Origin: Lytechinus pictus
Lineage: Eukaryota
NCBI RefSeq assembly: GCF_037042905.1
Contig: NC_087252.1
Coordinates: forward strand, 6,016,001 to 6,080,000
Direction of reading: 5' to 3'
Length of the DNA stretch: 64,000 nt
Below, piece after piece: positions 1 to 59,909 of the stretch. Within the stretch, counting starts at the first letter, position 1, and every line of letters begins with the position of its first letter. A program made the position numbers and the translations under genes. A model generated the notes under the pieces. The model was not told the origin of the DNA, made no database searches, and worked only from the letters and a program-made list of their open reading frames with translations.

Positions 1-2470
1 TTGTGCACTAGCAACCTTTATCTTGTGACTAGATTTGTTATCCTTTTTTGTAGTGAGTAACGAAGCTTCTCCCCAAAAAAAAAAAAAAAAAAAAAAAAAT
101 CAGCATCTTCGCTTTTATGTTATTTTTTCTCCTGATGCGCTTGTTGTTCAAAAAGTGGAATAAACGATAGATCAGAAAAATATTCAAAAAAGGGGAAAAT
201 GTTAATTTTGTCCTTGAAATGTCATATGTATATGGAATTCGTTTCCTTGACCAAGAAGACGAATCGACATCAAACTGTAATGTATGCGTTTATTATTTGC
301 TTAGATATACTAGCTGTCATCGAACATATCATAAAAGATCAATAATACACAAATTTAAGATCATGGCTGCACTTTATTCGTCATTAGTGTCAACTCAAGG
401 CATATTAACATGTCATTTGATACGAGCTTTGTCTAAAAGAGCCGAAGTGTACTTAAAAGATGTGAACAATATGCATCACAGGCATGAAAACATTCCTTTT
501 CCTACTTACAAAATCAATTCACATTCAACATTTCAACCGGCGTTTGTTTTGTCCCTTTATCATGTTTATAGAGAAGCTGCAATGGCGGGCCTGCATGATA
601 TCATGAATATACACTTGCATTCCGCACCCTACAGTGAATGTTCCTCTTCCTCATGAATCGCAAGCAGATAACTCTCCGTTGACATTAGATTAATTTTGTT
701 CAGAGGCTTATACTTCTTCCATCTTGAAAGCTTCAACATTGACGCAGGGGTGCGTCAGCGGAAAGACCCAACGCCATCAAGGACTATTATGACACGTTAT
801 TTTACTTGGAAAGCTGTATTAGAATAGATCGTGGTCAAGTGTTCAAACCATGACTTTTTGGTCCGTTTAAATAAAAACACATCTAAAACAAACTGGTAGT
901 ATTATGTACAGAATAATACAAACGTTTCACTTTTAAGTCGACGCAAGCCTGTGTCATTAATGGGCTCATCGGGCAAAATGCATAATGTGAAATGGCCCTG
1001 AAGCATCCAACGCGTTGATCCTTTCCAATGGACCATCAGCGAAGAGAGAGAGGGATAAACGCTAAGAGAGATTTACGGCTTTACAAGACAACCAAGCTCG
1101 TCTGATCTCTCTCGTCTTCGAGCGAGAAAAGGACAAGGAAGATTTTCGACATATGTTTACGATATGTCTTGACGTGAATGTAGTTTAGATTGGCCAACAA
1201 AGTACAATGCCATCTCACGCTATTTGATGCTGTCAAGGTTGCCCCACTAAATTACGGGTAAATCTTGTCGATTTCAGATACGGGCGTGAGCAAGACACAC
1301 GTCCTCCTGATCTTCACCTTCCACATTCATCAGTGGGCGTCGTGGGCATAAAACATTTCGTCATGAATAGAAATTTTCATTTTCCATTTGCATGAAGCGT
1401 CTGATTAAAGCATAGCATAAAATAGAAATGAAAATTTCGCTCCATAAATGGTGTGTAAAGCTCCCCTTTATGTTTATCCTTAAATATTCAACAAATGAAT
1501 TTAAAACATCGATGTTAGTTCATGTAAAAATATACAATTTTAGAATGACTGATTTTAATTGTGGTTAATTAGCAGTTATGTGTTCGGATTCGACCCGACC
1601 TCGTTCAAATATACACATATTACCTCCGACAAAATGATAACAACTTCCAAATTACTTGCACATGATTAAACGCTTTATAAAGGGGGGAAACGAACGTCCA
1701 AAAAATAGAAATTGATTGGGAAATGCATAACAAATTTATTATTCCCGATCACTTCTTCTATATCATGACTATTTAACACTCAGATCATGAAATCATTAAA
1801 ATTCCTTTGACTTTACGGATATCAGGTATAACGATAAAGAGTTGAGTTTCGTTTTTCCAATGCAAGACGCCGGTTTTAATCACCGGCCATTTATCACGCC
1901 GCACTTTCCATTTTCTCTTTATTTTCAAAAGGAAATTCCAACTATTGACTATTGCAAAATATATCGTGGAACCTGCTTACAATCTAACTTTGATCATATT
2001 CGTTAAGAGAAATACAATGGCGTATAATTTTGTGGTGTTTGTTTCTTAACCGGCAGATCTTGTTTGGTCACAGAAAATTGCACGATTGATTTAAAAAAAT
2101 GCAAGTGCTGTGTCTTCAGTGACGGTTTTTATTATAAATAAGCTCAAAGAAAACTTGTCTGAGAATTCGAAGTCGTATCGATGTTTTCAATCAAAATATT
2201 GTTTAACAACATGTTAACAGTAGATAATATCAAGGATACCGATTGAATATTCGTGCTTACGAAGTTAAAAAAATATCAACCGACCGTAAATGATTTGCTT
2301 CCAATTGCAGATAAAGTGATACGATCTATTTCCGGCGACAAATTCGAATAAACAATTATTATATCGCCATGATCATTGGCATTAGCATGCATACAGCATT
2401 TGAAATATCAGCAAATCGAATACATGAGAGAAGGAGGACAATAACAGGAAAAAACTATGAGTGTGAAGTA

Positions 2471-2711
2471 CACTGCAAAAACTCTGGTGTTGATTTAACA
2501 CCAGCCCGGAATCTATATGTCCACACCAGAGAAGTGTTAAACAACACCAGTTTTTGTTTTGGTCCAACACCATATAGGTGTTTATAAAACACCAATTAGT
2601 ATTAAAACAGCATCGGTTTGATTCCAAACTGGTGTTGTATCAATACTTCTCTGGTGTGGACATGTATAGATTCCAGGCTGGTGTTAAATCAACACTGGAG
2701 TTTGTGCAGTG
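2471..2711. mobile_element. Non-autonomous DNA transposon (MITE) with CACTG...CAGTG ends, EnSpm/CACTA-like; copy A
   Basis: Long imperfect TIRs (cactgcaaaaactctggtgttgatttaacaccagc... / ...gctggtgttaaatcaacactggagtttgtgcagtg), TA on both sides, internal aacacc/ggtgtt repeats; related copies at 2847 and 20241. Confidence 0.8.
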
Positions 2712-2846
2712 TAAAGAGATAATACCAAGGCATCCGATATGGGATGACGAAGGAGGAATATTGAAGAAGGGATAAATTATTCATTGCAAACAAAATAATA
2801 ATCATGACAGATATTACAGGAAAATCATAATTAATATATAAAATTA

Positions 2847-3086
2847 CACTGCAAAAAATCCGGTGTGGATTTAACACCAGCCCGGAATCTATATATGTCC
2901 ACACCAAAGAAGTATTGAAACAACACCAGTTTGGAATCAAACCGATGCTGTTTTATTACTAATTGGTGTTGTATCAACACCTTTCTGGTGTTAGACCAAA
3001 ACGAAACTGGTGTTGTTTAACACTTCTCTGGTGTGGACATATAGATTCCGGGCTGGTGTTAAATCAACACCAGAGTTTTTGCAGTG
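2847..3086. mobile_element. Same MITE family, copy B, inverted relative to copy A
   Basis: ta|cactgcaaaaaatccggtg...gagtttttgcagtg|ta; internal segment is the reverse complement of copy A. Confidence 0.8.
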
Positions 3087-6000
3087 TAAGATTTGCCATA
3101 TAAATACTTTCCAAATAATAGGTTTGTTATCATGATTGCCTTCATATTTCTTTACAATTGGACTACTTGGTTCAATACAGTAGGATACGAAGGATATTGA
3201 AGGGCGGACCCTGATTAATAAACGCGTTATAAAAGAGTGTTCGGCGCCTTATAATGTGTCCGAGATGCGAGTTTGTTTTGAATGTCAATATCACTAAGCA
3301 CTGGGAATGTAGCTGATGCCTAGAGGGTATTATTCAATATCATAATTATATTCCTGGTGGGAATTTGGGAAGCAGTGGCATTGTATTATGAAAAATCATG
3401 ATGAAGAGGGGAAGGTCATATTTTACAGGGATAGTTGTAAATCTAAAAACAAGAGGGCTTCTACGATGGTCGGATCGACAGAATTAGGGAGGCTGGGAGG
3501 TATGCATGAAAATTATGTTTAAAGGAAGGATAATGAGGTGAATAATTTAACAAGCAAACGGAAAATTGAAAACAAACCTAGGAAGGTGTTTATGTGAGCT
3601 ATTGCTTTGAAAATGAATGACTTGTTATTGGTATACGGTGGGAATTTACTGTTCAAACATAACGGTTTACATGGACGGAGCTTGCCTAAAATGCTCGAAG
3701 AGATGGCGGCGTAATGTAAAACTTCTTCAATTCCACCACTCTTTGAATGTTATAACATGTTACATTTACTTACATTCTGAATGTGAATGTAGTCATGCTT
3801 ATATATTGCTTCTTAAAAACACATCAGCGATTTACAGAAAATACATGTATGTAGGTAAAAATAGATATGATAACAAAATATAAATACATATGAGCCTGCT
3901 GAGGGAAATACGGATTAAATTCAATTAAGTTACAATATGCATGTCTGGTTTTTATCTCATTCTGGTTATGCATTTATGTACATAATTCTAAAAAGACCAG
4001 GAAGAATCTACCGTGGTCAGCCATTACATTATGATACACAGTCTTTGACTAATCTCAGAGATCTGAATGACTCTGAACTGTAAACGGTACATGGACCTAC
4101 AATGTCGAGTTAATTAAACAGACTGCACACAGCCGCTCCAAGGTGAATCACATATCGATCTCAGTTCGGTAGCCGAATCGTGACGTCATTGCTAGATTAT
4201 GACGTGACATTCTGGTTGAGTAGGTTTCAATACATTAATTGCAGATTGTGGTCTCAAATTCTTAATTCAAGTTTGAACCTTGCTTGAGGATAGGTCATGG
4301 TTGTGATATAATAAAAATATTCACCCTCCCCCTTTCCCTATTCTGCCCCGTATGCCAGTATTTGCGCAAGGGTAACCCGGCCCCGACCCAATTGTGGTAT
4401 ACTTCAAGTTTATTTGACTTCAAGTTTTTCGAACAACGTTAAATTGAATCCGCGCATTAAAAAAGTAAAAGTCCGACTTAAAACACCAAGATGAATACGA
4501 GTAAATCCGTAATTAATTGAAACGAATGGAGAAAAAAAACCATCGATATTTCTTTTTTAATAGGGAAATTTCGAAATATAGAATTTAAATATGATAAACA
4601 CAATGAGTATAGCAAAATAAAATCAGAATTTAAACAAAACAATGAAATGCAAGTATTGAATAGGTAAGCTTAAATAACATTTCAATTGATGTTAATATAT
4701 AATTTTTAATCACATTTAATAGTAAAAACAAAGCGAAAGAGAACAAGATCCAAGCAGGGTCCTTTGTTATATCTGAGTGAGCATTATAAAGAATGCACGG
4801 TGCCATACAGTTGTACCTTGTTTTCACACAATACAACGTTATAACAACTGATTTTCTTTACCCTTTTCCTGCATATCTTAATTCTAAAGGAAACCCGGGG
4901 GTGTTACCTTAAGACATGAACCTGATTTAGAAGTCGAGCAGAGTTTCCTGATCAAAGGGCCTTGCGCTAGAATAATCTAGTAGTCTGCATTTAAAGACCG
5001 AAAGATTTCGGTTTTTTTTCTCTTTTATTTCAAGTATTTGTTTCATTTCTGAATGATGAAGGGAGAAATAACAAGGTTGCTTTATTACTGGTTTAACATC
5101 TGCCGTTGACTTGGAAATACTTACTGGCGTTCAACGATTAAAGGGATAGAGCCTCGTCGATCTGGCGCTGCACAGCGGCTGCCGGGCCCACGATCAATTG
5201 GGCAAAGCAAATTTTCGAAGTATTTCATTTCATGTCTATTTCGAACAATAAATTATAAAAAAAAATGATAATAGAAAAAGATTATAATAAAACAAGTTAT
5301 CAGAGAATTTGGAATTAGAGACAAAATTGAACTCGGAAGTAAAGGAATGAAATGGACGATTTCCTAATTCCTTTCAATTATGTTTTACTATCAAAATAGA
5401 CCTAAGATTTTTAGAGAAATTGCCCCCCTTCCACTTGAAATTTGATGTTGAATAAGTTTGCTTTCTAATTTAACGAATGTGTTGTTTTTCTTTTAAACAA
5501 AGTCTTTGAAAGCAGACTAAAGTCTTTATGATAAATGTTGAGACAAGGCGAGCCGAGCAGGTGGTCTGTAGTAGTAGGTAAATTGAGAAGCGAGTTGTGT
5601 TTTCCTCCTGGTCTTACAAATCAATTATGGGTTCCCTTTTTGTTCACCCAGGCTATACCAACCCCTAACAAACTCCGTAAACCCCCCATGTCTATTATGG
5701 CTCCAAGAAGATAGGCAAAATTGAAAAAAAAAATCTTACATAATCTAAGATCACTCTAAAGCAGGAAGGAAATTACATGAAACACATTCGACATGGAAGG
5801 GGTATTATGTGTGCGACATAATTATCACATATAAATGAATTTTGTGGTCCGTGTTTTTGAAAGGGGAGTGCAATATGTTACGAGCAAACTAAAATCCTCT
5901 GTAAATTTGGTTCAAATTCAAAATCATAGAAGATGCAGCCTAGGGTTCCAATCGGGTAGTATGCTCGGTTTAGGGTTAGGTTTAGGGTATAGTGTTAAAC

Positions 6001-19848: not shown

Positions 19849-20240
19849 GTAATAACGGAAAATTGCTACAAGGATTAGATATTACTAGGAGTTTTGGTGT
19901 TTGTTTTGTAAGAATATCATGTAACACATAATTATCTTTGAAGATATACGGCAGTGATCATAAGTTTCATCTAGTTATTTGCTTCGGTACGGGATCTTCA
20001 AAAGATGTATCATGTATCCAATATAATTGTATTATCAGCGTTGGTCTTCATCAAGTTCGTTCCACTTCGATCGTACAAAAATAGATCGAGGCTCACAGCA
20101 TTTAGGTTTAGTTGCAGACGATAGATGGAGAATGTGGGGGGGGGGGACTGGAGATTGGGGTTCTATCAAAGTAAAGGAGGTAATTAGAAAATATTGAGAA
20201 AATAGAGATAGGGTCATGGTGTTCTATATAAGATACCATA

Positions 20241-20625
20241 CACTGCAGAAAAACCGGTGTTGATTTAACACCATCTCGGTATCTAGATTGGTCCACACCA
20301 GAGAGGTGTTTAAACAACACCAGATAAGAATCACACCGATATTGATTTAACACTAATTGGATTTGCTTAAATGCCGAGATGGTGTTAGCCTAACGCCAAA
20401 CCGGTGTTGTTTCAACACCAGAGAATCGGAGAAAACACAAGAGAAGCGTTGAAACAACACCAGTTGAATCAAACCGATATTCGTTTAACACTAATTGGTG
20501 TTGCTTAAATGCCAAATTAGTGTTAGCCTAATTCCAGACTGGTGTTGTTTCAACACCTCTCTGGTGTGGACTGATATATATATATATCAGGCTGGTGTTA
20601 AATTAACACCGGCGTTTTGGCGGTG
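20241..20625. mobile_element. Longer, diverged member of the CACTG MITE family (copy C)
   Basis: ta|cactgcagaaaaaccggtgttgatttaacacc ... ggtgttaaattaacaccggcgttttggcggtg|ta, with an internally duplicated block. Confidence 0.7.
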
Positions 20626-22486
20626 TATCCTTCGGGCAAGCGTTGATATTGCGCCCCCGTTCACGTTCTGACACTGCTTGCACCATTTCTTGTATGAAGG
20701 ATTGAATAAGTGGGGGAGAATGGAGGGGGCACTTCCTAGTACCCCTATTTCCACGTCTTCTGCAAAGCCGTGTAGCGTTTAACAGCACTTACCATGATCT
20801 AACCCAAACATGTCAATTGGGGTGAGGTGAAATGAATTACAGATATGGGAATAGATTTTACGCATGGAATAATGGTTGTGGAGGGGATTGTGAAGAAAAG
20901 GTGAGGTAAATACAGACAGACAAATACAGGGAAGACGTCGAATGAGGAAAAATATAATAAGAAACAAACCAAAAAAATTTACACAGTATGCAAGACATAA
21001 AATACAGAGAGGAGAAATAAAGATGCGGAGAAAATTAGATGTGGGAGAACGAAAAAAAACATGTACGACTGAGAGGGGCGGCTAAGGGAACGATAGATAG
21101 CCGAAGAGATAATCGATATTGCTCATTAAACTGTTCGAAGCGGATTGTTTCTGTCAGTATTGCGGCATTATATCAAGGGTATCGGATGAGCAACTAATCT
21201 CCCACAGCCAATGCAATGAAAAAGTAATGTAATGTAAATACTCCAAACCTTGAAGCATGGTAAACAAATACCTTTAAGAAGATGGGTAATAAAAAAAGGA
21301 GGGACTGTTTTACGTGCTCTCAACTTTTCTTCTCATCTTATAATAATTCAAAATTAAATAACATGAAGCTGTCGGAACAATATCAAATTAAATCACTACT
21401 GTACTTTTTAGCATATATAAATGACAAGTTTTCTCAAAGAAGGCATTCGCCCTTTTCTGTTAATAGAAGAGGAAGAGACATAGATTTATAAGAGGCAAGA
21501 TACATATCTAAAAGAGCATGCCACCTGCTATGGCACTTAGTACTGCAAACCCTTTCTAGGCAATATCACGCCTACTAATGGATGGAAATTGGGTTTGGGG
21601 TACTTTTTATGATAACCATAATATCTTCTTTTCTTCTTATAAAGTCGATGATAGATTTTACACCAAGAAGCAGAGAATAAACTTTCCTCATTAGAGTAAC
21701 GTGTTAAAAAGCTGTCCGGCTGCACTACAAAGCTCAAGGCTGAGTCTAGCCGTCTGTAAACTTGTCACTTTTTTGCTATGGTGGAGGTGAAGAACAAACA
21801 CAAAAGAGCGGAAGCGCCAGCCCGGATGTAAATGTGCCGCCATGCATCCGTGAATATCCAATGGGTGTGAATGGCTACCCTCTGCAGAGATGAAAGCACC
21901 AGGACCTCTGTGCAGTGCCCTAGATAGTGCATATAGCGCCATGTTAATGTTCGTCAAAATAATCTATGAAAGAAGTTTTTTTTTTCATTTGTGAATGACA
22001 TATTTAATTATATTATTGACATGGAGAATCAGTTAACACTCTAAAAACACATGGTATACAAATAAAACATGCATTATACTGCACTAACCTATTATTGACG
22101 TCAGAGAATAGTAAATTTTCTTTCGGGCATTTTTCAACAATATAGCTAGAAAATGTTTGGTCACAAGATGCTGTTCAACCAATCACTTTGCAGGATTTAA
22201 TTCTATGTAGGATATGATAGACTTATTGATTTGCTAAGAGGGAATATGATCGGTTGGGGGATAATAGTACCTTCTTGATAAAATGCATGGGCATTCAAAA
22301 TGCATTGACACTGTTCTAACAAAATAAATAAAAAGAAGAATTCCACAGGATATCCCACGGTTTCATCACAGTGCGAAACACAGTATGAAATCACCCACAC
22401 TATTAAGCGTGAAAATCTTACTTTCAGATTGTCTACTACATGTATGTGAACACGTTGTGAACACACTGTCATGACTGTGGACAAAG

Positions 22487-34584: not shown

Positions 34585-34955
34585 GGAGGAGCCGCGGTGT
34601 AGTGGTTCTGACTCTCGCCTTGTAAACAGAGGGTTGTGTGTTCGTATCCCACCGCGGTCTGGCGTCCTTTGGCAAGGCGTTAATCCACACTTTGCCACTC
34701 TCGACCCAGGTGCTAAATGGGTACCCGGTAGGATGTGAAAGTCATTGTAGCTTGTCCAGTACTGTGTGCGCCTCACCGGCGACTGACTGGAATACTCCCC
34801 AGGGAGTGGAGGATGTGCACACATTGTGTGCGGGAATGACTGATTGAATCCGATGACCGGGGTAATAATATATCTGTAAAGCGCTTAGACACGTCGTTCC
34901 GATGTATTAAGCGCTATATAAAAAACGGATTATTATTATATTATATTATTATTAT
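34585..34955 (+). mobile_element. tRNA-derived SINE, full length, with CORE-like centre and L2-like 3' tail
   Basis: tRNA-like head with A-box (cggtgtagtgg) and B-box-like gttcgtatccc; central ctttggcaag...ctcgacccaggtgctaaatgggtac; tail tgtaaagcgcttag...taagcgctatataaa followed by (TTA)n; second copy at 41587-41916. Confidence 0.85.
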
Positions 34956-35898: not shown

Positions 35899-36797
35899 TT
35901 TTTGTCTCGCCTGCATAGCAGAGCGAAAATATAGGCGCCGCTTTTCTGACGGCGGCGACGACGGCGTCGTCAACATTGAAATCTTAACCAAGGTTAAGTT
36001 TTTAAAATGTCATCATTACTTAGAAAGTATACAAATCTAGTTCATGAAACTTAGACATAAGATTAATCAAGTATAACGAAACATCCTGTCTGAGTTTTAA
36101 GTCACATGACTAAGGTCAAAGGTCATTTAGGAAAAATGAACTTCGACAATGTTGGAGGAATCAATATCGAGAACTTAACCAAAGTTAACATGGTTAAGTT
36201 TATGAAATGTTGTTATAACTTAGCAAGTAAATAAACCTAGTTCATTAAACTTAGACATAAGATTATTGGTGTATTACTGAACATTCTGCTCGAGTTTCAG
36301 GTCACATGATTAAGGCCAAATGTCACTAAGGGTCAAAGAACTTTGACCATTTTGGGGTATTTGTGGAATTGTCATCATAACTTTGAACATCAATGGGTCT
36401 AGTTCATGAATCTTAGACATGAGAGTAACCATGTATCCCTGAATATCCTGTGCGCGTTTCAGGTCACATGACTAAGACCAAGGGTCATTTAAAGTTAATG
36501 AACTTTGGCCGTGTTGGGGTTATTTGTTGAATAGACATCACAACTTAGAAAGTTTTTGGAGTTACACATGTGGTTCATGCAACATGGGCATAAGGGTAAT
36601 CAAGTATGTTTCGCTCACGTCTTAGGTCACGTGATCACGGTCTATTGTCATGTTGGGTCATTGGACATAGTATTTTATCATCATATTATGTGTTTCCTTT
36701 TGTGAATGATTATTTAATAGCTGTTTTCAAAATCAGCACTGCTGCTATATCGAGTTGCGTAATGCAGGCAAGACTGTCAGAGGCCTTCCACTTGTTT
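35899..36797 (+). mobile_element. Non-autonomous Helentron/Helitron-like element (HINE-type) with internal tandem repeats
   Basis: 5' tttttgtctcgcctgca and 3' tgcaggcaagac subterminal inverted repeat; ggcggcgacgacggcgtcgtc microsatellite near 5' end; ~4 diverged 160-200-bp units (ctagttcatgaaacttagacat...ggtcacatgac...aaggtca); ends cttgttt in T-rich site. Confidence 0.65.
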
Positions 36798-41586: not shown

Positions 41587-41916
41587 ATAACAATCCGATT
41601 TTATATAGCGCTTTATACATCGGAACAACGTGTCTAAGCGCTTTATAGATATATTATCACCCCGATCATCGGATTCAATCAGTCATTCCCGCACACAATG
41701 TGTGCACATCCTCCACTCCATGGGGAGTATTCTAGTCAGTCGCCGGTGAGGCGCACACAGTGCTGGACAAGCTGCAATGACTTTCACATCCTACCGGGTA
41801 CCAATTTAGCACCCGGGTCGAGAGAGGCAAACTGTGGATTAACGCCTTGCCAAAGGACGCTAGACCGTGGTGGGACCCTCTGTTTACAAGGCGAGAGTCA
41901 GAACCACGGCTCCTCC
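41587..41916 (-). mobile_element. tRNA-derived SINE, second copy, with two internal deletions in the tRNA head
   Basis: Reverse complement aligns with the 34585 copy over its whole length. Confidence 0.85.
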
Positions 41917-53361: not shown

Positions 53362-53497
53362 AGTAGTTATAGGATAGACCTCATACCAATTTGACCTTTG
53401 AGTGACCTTTGACCCCAACTTCCGGTCACTGTTGACCCCGTGACCCCACCTTCCGGTCAATCATGACCTTTGACCTTTGGGTACGCGGTAAACAGGA

Positions 53498-53758
53498 AAT
53501 TGGATAATGGAGCGCGGGAAGCGATTTTAATTGGATAATGGAGCGCGGGACGCGATTTTAATTGGATAATGAAGCGCGGGACGCGATTTTAATTGGATAA
53601 TGACTCCGCGTGGGGACGCGATTTTAATTGGATAATGACTCCGCGTGGGGACGCGATTTTAATTGGATAATGACTCCGCGTGGGGACGCCATCTTAATTG
53701 GATAATGAAACGCGGGACGCGATTTTAATTGGATAATGAGGGTCGGCGTGGGGACGCC
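53498..53758 (+). repeat. Subterminal tandem array, 8 units of 31-35 bp (AATTGGATAATG-var-GGGACGCGATTTT)
   Basis: Units counted directly; mirrored at 58169-58429. Confidence 0.9.
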
Positions 53759-53819
53759 ACGCTTCAACCCGGAAATGATGGGGGTGAATCTTAAAGAAAG
53801 AGTAAAAAGCAGCGCGTGC

Positions 53820-53855
53820 TATAAAACCCGCCAACTTGGACACCCGGCGCATTCT
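53820..53855 (+). promoter_or_regulatory. Candidate Pol II core promoter (TATAAAA plus Inr-like CATTC), pointing inward
   Basis: TATAAAA at 53820-53826; the A of CATTC lies at 53851, 31 nt downstream; located just after the ATTGG-containing array; mirrored on the - strand at 58072-58107. Confidence 0.5.
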
Positions 53856-53912
53856 GGACCTCGGACTAACCAGAACAGCTCTGCCGCAGGAACACCAATT
53901 TATCTACATGCC

Positions 53913-54131
53913 ATGTTGATAACCGTGTGGATGTTGTTTGCGCTTTGGAGAGAGCCGTACATAGGTTTTGAATTTTGGAGGAACTGGGAGAAAGTGTGGG
54001 AAGCGTATGAAGAGGAAAGGAAGAAAGGTATATTTGCCGGTCCAAAGGTGAATCATGAGTCAAACGCAGTGGAGCACCGAGGACGAAGCCATGCTTCGTC
54101 TCCTTCTGGTGGGAGATCATATTCAAGGTGA
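53913..54131 (+). CDS. Hypothetical 72-aa Trp-rich protein (MLITVWMLFALWREPY...), element-borne
   Basis: gccATG in good context ~60 nt after the predicted TSS; no recognisable domain. Confidence 0.3.
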   Translation: MLITVWMLFALWREPYIGFEFWRNWEKVWEAYEEERKKGIFAGPKVNHESNAVEHRGRSHASSPSGGRSYSR

Positions 54132-54246
54132 AAGCCGGCCCTCTCTGCCTCTTATTACAACAATGATTGGTAATCCAACATGTGATTATAATAGTGACAT
54201 CTCAAGCTCTACTCATTCCAGACTTTTACACATCAAAACTCTTTGA
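54055..54246 (+). CDS. Hypothetical 63-aa protein (MSQTQWSTEDEAMLRLLL...), element-borne
   Basis: ATG-initiated ORF overlapping the previous one; W-x-x-E-D-E-x-x-L start is only loosely like a Myb/SANT first helix. Confidence 0.25.
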   Translation: MSQTQWSTEDEAMLRLLLVGDHIQGESRPSLPLITTMIGNPTCDYNSDISSSTHSRLLHIKTL

Positions 54247-54748
54247 CTTTTTCATACTGTTTTGTTCATACTTTTCATACTTTTCATATTAACTGCCCGG
54301 CTCTCTGACCCGCAAAAGTATACTATATTGAAACCAGTAGATGACTCCTTTAAATCAACTTCATTCATCCGCAGTACATATGGTGATAACATGAAACACT
54401 ATACAGTCAAGGATGATTCTTTATTATTACTATCATTTATTCTATTCCATTTCAATGTAGATAGGTTCAATTAGTGTATAAACAGCAGATTTTGATACAA
54501 AGGTAAAAATAATGTAAGATATGTTCTCAAATTACGTTGTCACAACAAAATAATTAACTGTTCATTGTTAATATTAAAGTGAAGTTCTCGTTTTTTTCTT
54601 TCCCTTCGCTTAACTTATTGGATTGTAACACATGTCTATGGATGGCATTCAGAAAATATGAACACAATGAAGTTCAAACTGTCATTTATGCCCGCATTTA
54701 TGTTGACGGCGTTTTCTTGGATTATTCGACAAGCTGATGTTTGTGCCT

Positions 54749-55399
54749 TTAGTTGTAGGTTCCATCTTCACCCTCCGTTTCTTCTCCACCATCATCATTA
54801 TCGTCATCGTCACCTTGATACTGGAATAAACCATCGAATTGTGAACCATGCCTGGCTAACACTCTCTGTACGGCTTTCCGGAATTCCATGCCATTCTCTA
54901 ATCTTTCCGTGAGATCGGACACGATTTCACGATTGATGTCAGCGTCTTCGAGGTACACGTTCTGCTGCAAGAACTGAGAGTACAGATCGAAAAAGATGCG
55001 TTTGACTGCCCACATTAGTTTCACGTGAGCCTTTGCTTTAGCGTCTTCTTCTTCCATTCCTTCTGAGATGTATTTCTGATATTTTTCGTCTCTCAAGTCC
55101 TTGGTGGCCGTCATGGCTTGCTCTAACCATCCTCGATAAGCGAGGTTGTCTTCAGTTTCTTCCATGTTTGCTGTCATTGACGATTCGTGTCCATCGCTTT
55201 CTGATACGCTCGTTTCGGAATCACCGTTGGATTCTTCAACTCTTTGCATTTGAGAGGATGGGTCGGATTCTTCATCTTCACTCGTTTCTTCTCCAGTATC
55301 ATGCTCAATTTGTTCATGCCTCTGCATGTTATATTTCCTACTAAAAGTTTTATCGCATCGTGAACAAGCGTAACGGTTGGACATATCCAATATATTCAT
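54749..55399 (-). CDS. C2H2 zinc-finger protein, 216 aa (N-terminal finger, acidic linker, helical domain, acidic tail); left copy
   Basis: YACSRCDKTFSRKYNMQRHEQIEH matches C-x2-C-x3-F-x8-H-x4-H; intronless, complex-sequence ORF; first ATG at 55399 (track starts at an upstream TTG, 55447). Confidence 0.8.
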   Translation of the reverse strand: MNILDMSNRYACSRCDKTFSRKYNMQRHEQIEHDTGEETSEDEESDPSSQMQRVEESNGDSETSVSESDGHESSMTANMEETEDNLAYRGWLEQAMTATKDLRDEKYQKYISEGMEEEDAKAKAHVKLMWAVKRIFFDLYSQFLQQNVYLEDADINREIVSDLTERLENGMEFRKAVQRVLARHGSQFDGLFQYQGDDDDNDDGGEETEGEDGTYN

Positions 55400-55490
55400 G
55401 CTGACTCGATGATTATTTGTTGGGAAATGAAGAAAATTAACGTTCAAACTTGTAATTATACGTAATCATGAAACGCGCGCGAAGGTACTT

Positions 55491-55907
55491 TGATTCTTAC
55501 GGATTTTTACGCATTCTTACGGATTCTTACTCATTCTTACGGATTCTTACTCATTCTTACGGATTCTTACGGATGTTTACTCATTCTTACTCATTCTTAC
55601 TCATTCTTACGGATTTTTTACGGATTCTTACGGATGTTTACTCATTCTTACTCATTCTTACTCATTCTTACGGATTTTTTACGGATTCTTACGGATGTTT
55701 ACGGATTCTTACGGATGTTTACGGATTCTTACTCATTCTTACGGATTCTTACTCATTCTTACGGATTCTTACGGATGTTTACGGATTCTTACTCATTCTT
55801 ACTCATTCTTACTCATTCTTACTCATTCTTACGGATTCTTACTCATTCTTACGGATTCTTACGGATTTTTTACGGATTCTTAGGGATGTTTACGGATCCT
55901 TACGGAT
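55491..55907 (+). repeat. 10-bp variant tandem array (ACGGATTCTT / ACTCATTCTT / ACGGATGTTT / 11-bp ACGGATTTTTT), ~41 units
   Basis: Direct reading of sequence. Confidence 0.95.
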
Positions 55908-55950
55908 CCACGTTGGAATGACCCATGCTGTGGGTCATTCTAGCGTGGAT
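55906..55950 (+). other. 20-bp hairpin in the unique centre of the element
   Basis: atccacgttggaatgaccca-tgctg-tgggtcattctagcgtggat: 18 Watson-Crick pairs plus two G:T(U) wobble pairs on the + strand. Confidence 0.75.
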
Positions 55951-55989
55951 GAACATATTTTCCTTGAGATTATATGAAAGCATTGATTA

Positions 55990-56436
55990 ATCCGTAAGGA
56001 TCCGTAAGAATGAGTAAGAATCCGTAAGAATGAGTAAGAATCCGTAAGAATGAGTAAGAATCCGTAAACATCCGTAAGAATCCGTAAAAAATCCGTAAGA
56101 ATGAGTAAGAATGAGTAAGAATGAGTAAGAATGAGTAAGAATCCGTAAACATCCGTAAGAATCCGTAAGAATGAGTAAGAATCCGTAAGAATGAGTAAGA
56201 ATCCGTAAACATCCGTAAGAATCCGTAAACATCCGTAAGAATCCGTAAAAAATCCGTAAGAATGAGTAAGAATGAGTAAGAATGAGTAAACATCCGTAAG
56301 AATCCGTAAAAAATCCGTAAGAATGAGTAAGAATGAGTAAGAATGAGTAAACATCCGTAAGAATCCGTAAGAATGAGTAAGAATCCGTAAGAATGAGTAA
56401 GAATCCGTAAGAATGCGTAAAAATCCGTAAGAATCA
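55990..56436 (-). repeat. 10-bp variant tandem array, right copy, ~44 units
   Basis: Reverse complement of the left array, ~30 bp longer, with a different unit order at its inner end. Confidence 0.95.
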
Positions 56437-56466
56437 AAGTACCTTCGCGCGCGTTTCATGATTACG

Positions 56467-56502
56467 TATAATTACAAGTTTGAACGTTAATTTTCTTCAT
56501 TT
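56467..56502 (+). promoter_or_regulatory. Candidate core promoter of the zinc-finger gene (TATAATTA plus Inr-like TCATTT)
   Basis: TATA-like element at 56467, TCATTT at 56497-56502, ATG at 56528; preceded by ttcgcgcgcg; mirrored at 55425-55460 on the - strand. Confidence 0.4.
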
Positions 56503-56527
56503 CCCAACAAATAATCATCGAGTCAGC

Positions 56528-57178
56528 ATGAATATATTGGATATGTCCAACCGTTACGCTTGTTCACGATGCGATAAAACTTTTAGTAGGAAATATAACA
56601 TGCAGAGGCATGAACAAATTGAGCATGATACTGGAGAAGAAACGAGTGAAGATGAAGAATCCGACCCATCCTCTCAAATGCAAAGAGTTGAAGAATCCAA
56701 CGGTGATTCCGAAACGAGCGTATCAGAAAGCGATGGACACGAATCGTCAATGACAGCAAACATGGAAGAAACTGAAGACAACCTCGCTTATCGAGGATGG
56801 TTAGAGCAAGCCATGACGGCCACCAAGGACTTGAGAGACGAAAAATATCAGAAATACATCTCAGAAGGAATGGAAGAAGAAGACGCTAAAGCAAAGGCTC
56901 ACGTGAAACTAATGTGGGCAGTCAAACGCATCTTTTTCGATCTGTACTCTCAGTTCTTGCAGCAGAACGTGTACCTCGAAGACGCTGACATCAATCGTGA
57001 AATCGTGTCCGATCTCACGGAAAGATTAGAGAATGGCATGGAATTCCGGAAAGCCGTACAGAGAGTGTTAGCCAGGCATGGTTCACAATTCGATGGTTTA
57101 TTCCAGTATCAAGGTGACGATGACGATAATGATGATGGTGGAGAAGAAACGGAGGGTGAAGATGGAACCTACAACTAA
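56528..57178 (+). CDS. C2H2 zinc-finger protein, 216 aa; right copy, identical to the left
   Basis: Identical translation to 54749-55399; AATAAA signals downstream near 57487 and 57502. Confidence 0.8.
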   Translation: MNILDMSNRYACSRCDKTFSRKYNMQRHEQIEHDTGEETSEDEESDPSSQMQRVEESNGDSETSVSESDGHESSMTANMEETEDNLAYRGWLEQAMTATKDLRDEKYQKYISEGMEEEDAKAKAHVKLMWAVKRIFFDLYSQFLQQNVYLEDADINREIVSDLTERLENGMEFRKAVQRVLARHGSQFDGLFQYQGDDDDNDDGGEETEGEDGTYN

Positions 57179-57680
57179 AGGCACAAACATCAGCTTGTCG
57201 AATAATCCAAGAAAACGCCGTCAACATAAATGCGGGCATAAATGACAGTTTGAACTTCATTGTGTTCATATTTTCTGAATGCCATCCATAGACATGTGTT
57301 ACAATCCAATAAGTTAAGCGAAGGGAAAGAAAAAAACGAGAACTTCACTTTAATATTAACAATGAACAGTTAATTATTTTGTTGTGACAACGTAATTTGA
57401 GAACATATCTTACATTATTTTTACCTTTGTATCAAAATCTGCTGTTTATACACTAATTGAACCTATCTACATTGAAATGGAATAGAATAAATGATAGTAA
57501 TAATAAAGAATCATCCTTGACTGTATAGTGTTTCATGTTATCACCATATGTACTGCGGATGAATGAAGTTGATTTAAAGGAGTCATCTACTGGTTTCAAT
57601 ATAGTATACTTTTGCGGGTCAGAGAGCCGGGCAGTTAATATGAAAAGTATGAAAAGTATGAACAAAACAGTATGAAAAAG

Positions 57681-57872
57681 TCAAAGAGTTTTGATGTGTA
57701 AAAGTCTGGAATGAGTAGAGCTTGAGATGTCACTATTATAATCACATGTTGGATTACCAATCATTGTTGTAATAAGAGGCAGAGAGGGCCGGCTTTCACC
57801 TTGAATATGATCTCCCACCAGAAGGAGACGAAGCATGGCTTCGTCCTCGGTGCTCCACTGCGTTTGACTCAT
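57681..57872 (-). CDS. Mirror copy of the 63-aa hypothetical ORF
   Basis: Identical translation in the ORF track. Confidence 0.25.
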   Translation of the reverse strand: MSQTQWSTEDEAMLRLLLVGDHIQGESRPSLPLITTMIGNPTCDYNSDISSSTHSRLLHIKTL

Positions 57873-58014
57873 GATTCACCTTTGGACCGGCAAATATACC
57901 TTTCTTCCTTTCCTCTTCATACGCTTCCCACACTTTCTCCCAGTTCCTCCAAAATTCAAAACCTATGTACGGCTCTCTCCAAAGCGCAAACAACATCCAC
58001 ACGGTTATCAACAT
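57796..58014 (-). CDS. Mirror copy of the 72-aa hypothetical ORF
   Basis: Identical translation in the ORF track. Confidence 0.3.
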   Translation of the reverse strand: MLITVWMLFALWREPYIGFEFWRNWEKVWEAYEEERKKGIFAGPKVNHESNAVEHRGRSHASSPSGGRSYSR

Positions 58015-58168
58015 GGCATGTAGATAAATTGGTGTTCCTGCGGCAGAGCTGTTCTGGTTAGTCCGAGGTCCAGAATGCGCCGGGTGTCCAAGTTGGCGGG
58101 TTTTATAGCACGCGCTGCTTTTTACTCTTTCTTTAAGATTCACCCCCATCATTTCCGGGTTGAAGCGT

Positions 58169-58429
58169 GGCGTCCCCACGCCGACCCTCATTATCCAATT
58201 AAAATCGCGTCCCGCGTTTCATTATCCAATTAAGATGGCGTCCCCACGCGGAGTCATTATCCAATTAAAATCGCGTCCCCACGCGGAGTCATTATCCAAT
58301 TAAAATCGCGTCCCCACGCGGAGTCATTATCCAATTAAAATCGCGTCCCGCGCTTCATTATCCAATTAAAATCGCGTCCCGCGCTCCATTATCCAATTAA
58401 AATCGCTTCCCGCGCTCCATTATCCAATT
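58169..58429 (-). repeat. Subterminal 31-35-bp tandem array, right copy
   Basis: Reverse complement of 53498-53758. Confidence 0.9.
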
Positions 58430-58565
58430 TCCTGTTTACCGCGTACCCAAAGGTCAAAGGTCATGATTGACCGGAAGGTGGGGTCACGGGGTCAACAGTG
58501 ACCGGAAGTTGGGGTCAAAGGTCACTCAAAGGTCAAATTGGTATGAGGTCTATCCTATAACTACT

Positions 58566-58571
58566 TATTCT
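58566..58571 (+). repeat. Right target-site duplication TATTCT
   Basis: Matches 53356-53361. Confidence 0.9.
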
Positions 58572-59909
58572 GTAATACATTACATTTTGTGAATCTGAAT
58601 ATCTAAATAAAGGCACGAAGGTAAAGCATATTCTTCGAACTTGGACATTTTCAAAACGCTCAATTTTATTTTGAATTCGTCAGGTTTGGGACTGTGTGAA
58701 TCCCGCTATTACTTACAAAAAAAGGTCATTTGTACTTTAAGCATCTTCCAAACAACATTTACTTCTCAAAGGGTATGAGCAAAACGAACTTGAGTGAAAT
58801 ATTTAGCCTTTGCAACTCTTACCATGAAGCTTTGATTGCCCGGGGATCAGCGAACCAAAATTTGGCTGACGTTTTAGTAGGTAGGGAGGACACTAACAGT
58901 TTTTAAATGGATTTGCCGTTTAAACTTGAGCCTTGAGTGAAGGGAAAGTGAAAGGATTTGATATAAACTTGTCCATCTCTTCCTAGTGTCACATGTCTCG
59001 AACATTTATTGTGAATCCTAAAGGCAACGAGTTAGAGGTTCCCAGTTCCGCTTCTCTCTTTCTATTTCCAAAAAGAGCGAGTTTCTTGCAAAGTTTTGGC
59101 ATCTTTTTACACACAAACGTTGAATATGTTAAACAATTAAAGATCATATAAGAATAATGAACAAATGACTTCATTAACATGTTCTACAAATCAATAGATA
59201 AATAGAATAATGCATATTAATAAGGAAAAAGTAGAAATATATACATGTATATATTAATAAAGAAAATCAAATAAATCAGTAGATAATATCGGCTGATTAG
59301 ATAATGAAATAAAAAGAAAAAGAAAATGAAAAAATAATGACAACCTAATAGAATATTTGAAAGTGCTCATTTATTCATATCAGCATGATGATAATAATCC
59401 GTCTATGGTTTTTTTTTTGATGAACAATTATTTCCCGCCATGAATTTGTGCCTATTTTTGTGAAATTCACTTGGATCGATTCATACTGAATTCTCATTAT
59501 ACCAATCAATATGGCAATTTTTCAATCAACAAATGCTAAATGAATCATTAGTTTTCTATCCGATCATAACCAGAAAACGACCCAGTGGCGACATTTTGAC
59601 ATTTGGAGGTTTTCTGGGAAGTTGTTTACGAATTCGGAATATGAGCTTTCCATTTGCCTGACTTTATGAGAAATAATGGTTGGAGATATGCTATCCCGTG
59701 CCTGGTAAAAATCAAGTGATTTTAGGACGTTAAATCTTAGTTTCAAAAGACACCAACATATTTTATTGAAGTTTTCGAGCGTATATCAATGTTATTTTGA
59801 AATCAAAGGCCATATAGCTACTGATATAGGACTTCCGCGATAACATCACAACCCTGAAAATTATAAATTATATGTATATTATATGAATTGCCACCCTCCC
59901 CCACCCCTC

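What the first reader, a model, noticed from the sequence alone, without database searches (positions are those of the whole stretch)
54749..57178. The only clear cargo: twin, divergently oriented single-C2H2-finger genes
Seen: two identical intronless 216-aa ORFs reading outward from the central arrays. Each has one N-terminal C2H2 finger, a Ser/Glu/Asp-rich linker, a ~110-aa predicted helical region (EDNLAYRGWLEQAM...RHGSQFDGLFQY) that I cannot assign to a named family, and an acidic tail. Inference: a Polinton accessory regulator, such as a transactivator or acidic DNA-mimic/chaperone. Its retention when all core genes are gone may help the mini-element hijack or suppress its helper, or may only reflect closeness to the end.
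Basis: partly seen in the sequence, partly recalled or inferred. Interest (0 to 1): 0.7.

Follow-up and report, generated by a model that had tools for sequence, protein, structure and literature searches.

The report
Motor-less ATPase paralogue in palindromic mini-Polinton
A small virus-like jumping element in a sea-urchin-type genome is made of little more than two mirror-image ends, each carrying the same gene for a zinc-finger protein that looks like a viral DNA-packaging motor without its engine and probably binds the repeats next to its own gene.

Summary
Window 53362-58565 is a 5,204-bp element with AGTAGT/ACTACT ends, a 6-bp target-site duplication and two perfect 2,476-bp inverted arms. 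One gene lies in each arm, so it is one gene in a long terminal repeat of a non-autonomous Polinton-type element.

The unassigned helical region matches the C-terminal module of a widespread zinc-fingered A32-type ATPase ([C2H2]-ATPase-[C2HC]-helical-acidic; hhalign 99.8%). Two bivalve gene models run from that ATPase into a Polinton-type integrase. The window's protein is that architecture without the motor and inner finger. Such stand-alone proteins form one old clade containing none of 120 ATPase fusions.

The finger has a DNA-reading helix (Arg-1, Asn3, Arg6, predicting GAG). The decamer array 93 bp upstream is GAG-rich, and Asp3 relatives have GCG arrays upstream.

Most likely it is an array-binding regulator or adaptor that works like adenovirus L4-22K beside IVa2 (0.5). 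Passive carriage in the repeat is the main rival (0.25). Binding, oligomerisation, expression and the helper element are not shown. DNA mimicry is unsupported. New variant of a known kind; interest 0.5.

The parts
53362..58565 (.). Non-autonomous Polinton/Maverick-type element, 5,204 bp, almost wholly palindromic; ends AGTAGT...ACTACT
   Evidence: end motif and 6-bp TSD as in PMC8097293
53356..53361 (+). Left copy of 6-bp target-site duplication TATTCT
58566..58571 (+). Right copy of 6-bp target-site duplication TATTCT
53362..55837 (+). Left arm (terminal inverted repeat), 2,476 bp, no mismatch to right arm
56090..58565 (-). Right arm (terminal inverted repeat), 2,476 bp
54749..55399 (-). 216-aa ORF, left copy: C2H2 finger, acidic linker, helical domain, acidic tail
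56528..57178 (+). 216-aa ORF, right copy (P0001), nucleotide-identical to left copy
56555..56626 (+). C2H2 finger (res 10-33; H-X4-H; helix R-1, N3, R6); mirror copy 55301-55372 (-)
56777..57112 (+). Helical domain (res 84-195), homologous to the C-terminal module of zinc-fingered A32-type ATPases; mirror copy 54815-55150 (-)
55492..55907 (-). Left decamer array, about 41 units, upstream of left gene; candidate finger-binding sites
55989..56435 (+). Right decamer array, about 44 units (19 AATCCGT, 17 AATGAGT, 1 AATGCGT), ending 93 bp before the ATG
55908..55988 (.). Unique central spacer of about 81 bp, the only non-repeated DNA of the element
55906..55950 (+). 20-bp-stem hairpin with 5-nt loop and two G-T pairs on the + strand; role unknown
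   Evidence: z -5.67, 0 of 200 shuffles (100-nt stretch)
53498..53757 (+). Left subterminal 31-35-bp array, about 7 units, each with GGATAATG and a CCAAT box; GCG-rich
58170..58429 (-). Right subterminal 31-35-bp array (mirror)
53392..53475 (+). Cluster of 7 TGACC[T/C] motifs just inside the left end (mirrored at the right end)
   Evidence: 7 in 439 bp versus 0.4 per 439 bp outside the element

Best explanation
Shown: the locus is a recently inserted, non-autonomous Polinton-type element reduced to two long identical arms around inverted decamer arrays. The two genes are one gene carried in the terminal repeat. Shown by homology: the protein has the N-terminal finger type, the C-terminal helical domain and the acidic tail of a zinc-fingered A32-type packaging ATPase, and lacks the motor and the inner C2HC finger. 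It belongs to an old stand-alone clade. Inferred: the single finger reads a G-N-G triplet (GAG here) repeated once per helical turn in the array upstream of its own gene, and gains avidity by oligomerising through the helical domain. Inferred, weaker: bound to the array it acts as a specificity and regulatory subunit, switching on transcription from the array with its acidic segments and recruiting a helper's finger-ATPase through the shared helical domain. This is how adenovirus L4-22K works with IVa2 at repeated packaging elements and at the late promoter. Integration, and any replication or packaging, comes in trans from a helper. An excised single strand would fold into one 2.5-kb hairpin holding a single double-stranded gene copy.
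For: Ends, TSD and perfect arms match Maverick criteria. Multi-copy with the same end: in run X11 the arm's ORF bins have depth 182-642 versus about 35 on the flank, and 3 contigs leave the element at 58565 with differing flanks. Six RefSeq accessions in L. pictus fall in one cluster of 5 intact 225-aa proteins, two of them consecutive loci on one contig. Homology: hhalign 99.8%, E 6e-29. A helical-only HMM from 6 ATPase fusions scores P0001 86.6 bits versus at most 9.2 for 500 shuffles. 116 of 120 top ATPase hits carry the domain and 38 of 120 have an N-terminal C2H2 finger. Gene models P0245 and P0218 continue into rve and chromo domains. 30 of 30 stand-alone fingers score higher on the N-finger than the inner-finger HMM. 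H-X4-H spacing occurs in 31 of 32 stand-alone and 39 of 42 ATPase C2H2 fingers. The stand-alone clade has 53 tips and 0 of 120 fusions, support 0.959. R-1 occurs in 31 of 32 and R6 in 32 of 32 stand-alone fingers. The predicted triplet is the most enriched G-N-G upstream in the window (GAG 15 vs 9.7 shuffled, 27/500), L001 (GCG 14 vs 3.8, 1/500) and L002 (GCG 11 vs 5.2, 11/500). The helix RSDNLTR reads GAG in PMC1920264 Table 1. dN/dS between L001 and L002 is 0.12.
Against: No binding, oligomer or ATPase contact was measured. Only 17 of 37 counted right-array units carry GAG; 19 carry CCG, and the unconditioned enrichment is modest (27/500). L003 (Thr3) has a GTG array, whereas the Thr3 helix's table was selected for a middle C. 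L004 has only 103 bp upstream and no enrichment. L001 and L002 are 89% identical, so they count as one lineage. The near-identical L. pictus protein P0006 has Asp3; its array was not seen, and the GCG-rich subterminal array (32 GCG) is an alternative target. The AAT-GNG context was chosen after seeing the data. No helper or autonomous copy was found, and no ATPase is coded in the window or L001-L004. The tree is unrooted, the stand-alone set was collected with this query, and the 116 of 120 figure is biased because the query contained the domain. RNA reads (134 laid) fall on both strands and as deeply on the subterminal array as on the ORF.
Confidence: 0.5

Rival explanations
1. Passenger: the gene works only for the autonomous parent, where it lies in or near a long terminal repeat. 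The mini-element keeps it only because the deletion or fold-back point fell in the arrays just inside it.
For: Gene-bearing TIRs of about 2 kb giving two gene copies per insertion are reported for butterfly polintons (10.1101/2025.02.07.637071). The arms are too young (0 differences in 2,476 bp) for decay to show. The dN/dS value comes from another host's copies. Tandem arrays are natural breakpoints, and other rearranged copies appear as joints in run X11.
Against: The stand-alone clade is diverse (pairwise identity 28% minimum, 42% median). In 4 of 4 fetched loci there is no ATPase within the 1.5-2 kb held. These contigs are too short to exclude a full parent.
Confidence: 0.25
2. Decoy: the motor-less paralogue co-assembles with the helper's finger-ATPase through the shared helical domain or competes for its arrays, so it suppresses the helper or diverts its motor to the mini-element.
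For: Domain architecture is that of the ATPase minus the motor. Both finger types share R-1 and R6 (33 of 38 each in ATPase N-fingers).
Against: The helical domains of the stand-alone clade and the fusions are only about 25-35% identical. Residue 3 differs: D or N in 31 of 32 stand-alone fingers, but V, N, A or S in 33 of 38 ATPase fingers. An earlier AI note (e1-7394257, unchecked) reports a small acidic finger protein encoded together with the ATPase in one element, which would suit a partner rather than a parasite.
Confidence: 0.12
3. Acidic DNA mimic or histone-type chaperone.
For: 25% D/E overall; acidic linker and tail.
Against: The folded domain is near neutral (16 K/R, 20 D/E). The acid lies in low-confidence segments. 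The finger keeps DNA-reading arginines in 31-32 of 32 homologues. The same acidic tail ends the ATPase fusions.
Confidence: 0.05
4. Assembly fold-back artefact, or an ordinary duplicated host gene.
For: A perfect 2.5-kb palindrome can arise from chimeric long reads (general knowledge). No run spans the element; the best run holds 0.54 of sampled words.
Against: The palindrome stops exactly at AGTAGT/ACTACT with a direct 6-bp TSD and different flanks. The centre is asymmetric (41 vs 44 units and a unique spacer). The same end joins other flanks in run X11.
Confidence: 0.03

Closest known systems
Polinton/Maverick elements (polintoviruses, adintoviruses)
   Same: (AGT)2//(ACT)2 ends, 6-bp TSD and TIRs (PMC8097293, passages). 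The protein is homologous to a module of an A32-type ATPase found next to an rve/chromo integrase; a C-terminal chromodomain is described for adintovirus integrases (PMC11071296, passage).
   Different: 5.2 kb versus 12.7-24.6 kb. Arms are 2,476 bp versus 46-1,447 bp in intact vertebrate elements. No core gene is present; about 95% of the element is TIR.
Butterfly polintons with gene-bearing TIRs (bioRxiv 10.1101/2025.02.07.637071)
   Same: TIRs of about 2 kb carry genes, giving two copies per insertion (passage).
   Different: There the TIR genes are hexon and adenain in full-length elements. Here the TIRs are the whole element and carry a finger protein.
Zinc-fingered A32-type (Pox_A32, PF04665) ATPases of bivalve and other marine-invertebrate Polinton-type elements
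   Same: N-terminal H-X4-H finger with R-1/R6, helical domain and acidic tail.
   Different: Motor and inner C2HC finger are absent. The stand-alone proteins form a separate clade. Not found described in the papers searched; seen in earlier AI notes of this scan.
Adenovirus L4-22K with IVa2
   Same: Works-like analogy: a small non-motor protein binds repeated packaging elements with the ATPase (PMC5033970, passages) and regulates the major late promoter (PMC5389519, search listing).
   Different: No homology is claimed or tested. The adenoviral domain lies near the end; here the finger-matched array is central.
Snap-back defective viral genomes and self-complementary AAV
   Same: A genome made of one end copied back on itself folds into a single duplex and depends on a helper (snap-back DI genomes in search listing; self-complementary AAV recalled).
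   Different: Integrated in an animal germ line with a TSD. Whether it arose by fold-back or by deletion between long TIRs is unresolved.
GAGA factor (recalled)
   Same: Single C2H2 finger plus an oligomerisation domain binding arrays of short sites.
   Different: Unrelated second domain; only the finger matches structurally, with a non-significant E-value. Oligomerisation is not shown here.
Maverick PM and adintovirus 'Ziftr' ORFs
   Same: PM is an unassigned ORF directly after atp. Ziftr is a label for adintovirus finger proteins.
   Different: No PM sequence was available. The 17 of 24 Ziftr entries seen (some cut) are heterogeneous and show no obvious helical-domain motif by eye; not aligned.

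Membership tests
Polinton/Maverick | (AGT)2//(ACT)2 or (AG)3//(CT)3 ends | tested here: met
Polinton/Maverick | 6-bp target-site duplication | tested here: met
   TATTCT on both sides
Polinton/Maverick | Terminal inverted repeats | tested here: met
   2,476 bp perfect, longer than the 46-1,447 bp
Polinton/Maverick (autonomous) | Encodes pPolB and integrase | tested here: not met
   All stop-to-stop frames of 60 aa or more in the element are listed; none is long enough, and the longest non-array frame is the finger gene. So it is not an autonomous Polinton.
Polinton/Maverick (autonomous) | Packaging ATPase, capsids and protease | tested here: not met
   ATPase HMM finds nothing in the window; no frame is left for the others
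Non-autonomous Polinton derivative | Cognate autonomous element with the same ends in the host | not testable with these tools
   no genome held; no match to the end motif in viral contigs
Non-autonomous Polinton derivative | Multiple insertions sharing the end | tested here: met
   in a related organism: depth excess and 3 contigs with differing flanks at 58565; whether those copies are core-less is not known
Zinc-fingered A32-type ATPase family | P-loop ATPase domain | tested here: not met
   absent from P0001; so a paralogue of the non-motor part, not a member
Zinc-fingered A32-type ATPase family | C-terminal helical domain | tested here: met
Zinc-fingered A32-type ATPase family | N-terminal H-X4-H C2H2 finger with R-1/R6 | tested here: met
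   short motif, and part of the HMM contrast comes from the last ligand
Sequence-specific C2H2 DNA-binding protein | Measured binding to a DNA site | not testable with these tools
   only code-based prediction and array covariation
Maverick PM protein | Sequence homology to PM | not testable with these tools
   the supplement held lists tables without PM (part 1 of 43 read)
Adintovirus Ziftr | Sequence homology | tested here: inconclusive
   17 of 24 entries viewed by eye; supplement cut at about 4 MB
Any solved or modelled fold for the helical domain | Significant structural match | tested here: inconclusive
   best Z 7.1-7.2 (rmsd 2.9, 62 aligned) among generic helical hairpins; Foldseek no E<=0.001

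The most novel reading that the evidence does not exclude
The stand-alone clade marks a widespread, old family of satellite elements of Polinton-type viruses in marine invertebrates. These would be self-complementary hairpin genomes whose only product is a motor-less copy of the helper's packaging ATPase, tagging their own array and capturing or blocking the helper's motor. That would be an animal germ-line counterpart of phage satellites, with finger and array co-evolving as a self-recognition code.
Probability: 0.2. Interest if true: 0.8.

Novelty: new variant of a known kind. Interest (0 to 1): 0.5.

Why it matters
How Polinton-type elements recognise their own DNA for expression or packaging is open, as far as I recall. 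This locus offers a minimal testable pair: one small soluble protein with a readable finger, and one 10-bp array, with natural Asn3/GAG and Asp3/GCG variants as built-in controls. It ties an unnamed helical domain to the packaging ATPase, and shows that a Polinton-type element can integrate as little more than two ends. It also flags RefSeq 'uncharacterized' and 'dentin matrix acidic phosphoprotein 1-like' models in L. pictus as probable mobile-element genes.

Tried and rejected
- No whole genome was held, so copy number, helper and empty site could not be surveyed.
- Viral contigs gave nothing: protein or alignment scans and the end motif. The array motif gave 2 single matches with no helical-domain or ATPase hit; dropped as chance.
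- Fold searches found no significant match for the full model or the domain alone. A PDB sequence search matched mainly the finger; one weak helical-region hit (8xks_M, E 2e-4, 50 residues) was not pursued.
- ESM Atlas: no usable hit for the domain; finger-driven hits only for P0169. Pfam has no family for the helical domain.
- Homodimer prediction: no answer, score 0.00, alignment not used; no evidence either way.
- Rfam: 2 mirror matches far below the gathering score.
- Expression: no RNA holder listed. Raw RNA reads are few, on both strands and from a related organism; X2's RNA status is a guess.
- P0098 among the 136 hits is a repeat protein and was disregarded.
- The careful IQ-TREE run did not finish; the quick tree used 45 of 120 fusions and FastTree used all 197 domains. 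Domains covering under 95 profile positions and duplicates were dropped before both trees.
- The 131-aa arm ORF and the 169/174-aa array ORFs were rejected as genes.
- Literature: searches listed no paper that evidently describes this element or protein family; most were seen as listings only. Motif searches in the supplements of PMC8502044 (0 hits, about 4 MB held) and PMC11071296 (cut; no CDDCG or TEGSHH hit) are not exhaustive. Repbase and Kapitonov and Jurka 2006 were not consulted and may hold non-autonomous sea-urchin Polintons.
Full report
OBSERVATION. The two 216-aa ORFs exist at the stated coordinates, diverge from the centre and are identical over 651 nt. The finger (res 10-33) reaches the Pfam zf-C2H2 cut-off. 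AlphaFold with 60 aligned homologues gives a confident finger, a low-confidence acidic linker, a confident helical region at about res 86-192 and a low-confidence tail; the domain alone has mean pLDDT 95.6.

THE ELEMENT. Both ORFs lie inside a palindrome, 53362-58565. The arms match without a difference for 2,476 bp, leaving a 252-bp asymmetric centre. The ends are AGTAGT and ACTACT and the flanks repeat TATTCT directly. These are the end motif and TSD length given for Mavericks in PMC8097293 (passages). Each arm holds, from the end inward: TGACC motifs, a 31-35-bp array, about 1 kb without a credible gene, the outward-reading gene, and a decamer array. The two decamer arrays share their outer units in the same order and then differ (41 vs 44 units), around a unique spacer holding a 20-bp hairpin (z -5.67). 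No core gene fits. The TSD, differing flanks and asymmetric centre argue against a fold-back artefact. So 'twin genes' means one gene in a long TIR. Gene-bearing TIRs of about 2 kb are already reported for butterfly polintons (10.1101/2025.02.07.637071, passage).

HOST AND COPIES. The closest named homologues are from Lytechinus pictus (84% identity in the domain, and 98% over part of it), so the host is probably a Lytechinus-like sea urchin (inference). One L. pictus cluster has 5 intact 225-aa proteins under 6 accessions on several large contigs; two are consecutive loci on one contig, as a twin arrangement would give. Two other models are aberrant (P0006, P0010). In DNA run X11, a related organism, the arm's ORF bins have depth 182-642 against about 35 on the flank, and 3 contigs leave the element at 58565 with differing sequence. 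RNA evidence is weak: 134 reads in about 6% of run X23, on both strands, with strand not resolved.

THE PROTEIN. The helical domain found 136 representatives at E<=0.001. Several distant ones continue N-terminally into a Pox_A32 ATPase. A search with six such fusions returned 1,347 proteins at E<=1e-10 among 4,333 candidates, with named ones from Pecten, Mytilus, Mizuhopecten, Argopecten, Pinctada, Solemya, Ruditapes, Mya and Mercenaria. Of the 120 listed, 116 score 20 bits or more with an HMM built only from close stand-alone domains, 119 have an inner C2HC finger and 38 an N-terminal C2H2 finger; the query selects for this. The reverse test gives 86.6 bits against at most 9.2 for 500 shuffles, and hhalign gives 99.8%. 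Two Mya gene models run from ATPase and helical domain into rve or chromo domains, which places the module beside a Polinton-type integrase. All 30 stand-alone fingers tested fit the N-terminal finger profile better than the inner one, and both types use H-X4-H spacing (31 of 32; 39 of 42). The window's protein is thus the two outer parts of the ATPase architecture. In a tree of 197 domains the 32 stand-alone proteins and 21 fragments form one clade with none of 120 fusions (0.959; SH-aLRT 91 with 45 fusions), and pairwise identity within it falls to 28%. The motor-less form is therefore old, not an accident of this insertion. The root is unknown, so loss of the motor and insertion of a motor into an older finger protein are both open. 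No fold or family match was found for the domain.

FINGER AND ARRAY. An earlier AI note from another genome (e1-7394257) suggested that such fingers match repeats beside their genes; I tested this on my own loci. Stand-alone fingers have R at -1 (31 of 32) and 6 (32 of 32), and D (21), N (10) or S (1) at 3. R-1/N3/R6 reads GAG in PMC1920264 Table 1 (passage); D3 for a middle C is recalled. Upstream of the window's gene (N3), GAG is the most enriched G-N-G (15 vs 9.7; 27/500 shuffles). Upstream of L001 and L002 (D3; 43-44% identical to the query domain) it is GCG (14 vs 3.8, 1/500; 11 vs 5.2, 11/500), in similar AATGCGT units. L004 (D3) has one such unit in 103 bp, which is uninformative. L003 (T3, broken) has a GTG array (36 vs 10.6), which fits G-N-G but not clearly the middle base. 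Against this reading: half the window's units are CCG, L001 and L002 are one lineage, P0006 has D3 with its array unseen, and the subterminal array is GCG-rich. L001 versus L002 gives dN/dS 0.12, in another host.

MECHANISM. The best reading (0.5) is an array-binding subunit. One finger per monomer, oligomerised through the helical domain, covers sites spaced one turn apart, activates transcription there and can recruit the helper's finger-ATPase. Adenovirus L4-22K with IVa2 is the working analogy (PMC5033970, passages; PMC5389519, listing), not a family assignment. Oligomerisation and ATPase contact are inferred from architecture only. Rivals are passenger (0.25), decoy (0.12), DNA mimic (0.05) and artefact or host gene (0.03). 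On origin, either a parent with long gene-bearing TIRs lost its interior between the arrays, or one arm was copied back at the arrays or hairpin; I cannot separate these. The helper need not be a canonical pPolB-bearing Polinton: an unchecked note (e1-7276535) reports integrase-plus-finger-ATPase mini-elements, and the finger-ATPase motifs were absent from the held part of one adintovirus protein compilation.

NOVELTY. Non-autonomous derivatives are a known kind (recalled), and gene-bearing TIRs are in print. An element that is almost all TIR, and a motor-less ATPase paralogue with a finger-array match, did not turn up in the searches named under Tried and rejected; Repbase was not available. 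Other papers seen as passages: PMC11131425, PMC8502044, PMC11071308, PMC3671162, PMC6431247, PMC10748475, 10.1101/2024.01.15.575659, PMC5260074, PMC11071296. Verdict: new variant of a known kind, interest 0.5.

Noticed in passing
window 55906-55950: 20-bp-stem hairpin in the unique spacer; its two imperfect pairs are G-T on the + strand only, which suggests a strand-specific single-stranded role or a fold-back point.
   Followed up: partly
window 53362-53800 and mirror: Each end clusters 7 TGACC[T/C], 9 CCAAT, 8 GGATAATG and 3 CCGGAA[G/A] motifs (0.4, 0.96, 0.03 and 0.04 per 439 bp outside). [quoted passage not shown]
   Followed up: partly
window 57817-58120: Segment replaced or absent in related copies (same loose end at 57817 in X1 and X23), while the gene and terminal array are kept.
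   Followed up: no
run X11 laid on 56436-59400: Joints 56437-57296 (opposite strands), 56709-57169 (skip 459) and 58564-57240 show further rearranged or deleted copies in a related organism.
   Followed up: no
L001:1-193 and L002:1522-1705: The same array-plus-spacer block lies upstream of the gene in L001 and inverted downstream of it in L002 (93% identical).
   Followed up: no
P0061, P0094, P0111: P0061 begins with a read-through of a tandem array; P0094 is fused to ubiquitin-like sequence; P0111 has an ATPase tail and the helical domain without the inner finger and branches next to the stand-alone clade.
   Followed up: partly
window 2466-2714, 2842-3089, 20236-20628: Three short MITE-like copies with TACACTGCA...GCAGTGTA-type inverted ends.
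   Followed up: no
window 34647-34923 and 41599-41875: 277-bp inverted pair, 95% complementary, 6.7 kb apart.
   Followed up: no
window 35989-36550: 162-200-bp dispersed/tandem repeat, three copies, 71-78% alike.
   Followed up: no
L004: An animal-type mobile-element gene sits on a 1.5-kb contig of a bacterial MAG, probably contamination.
   Followed up: no
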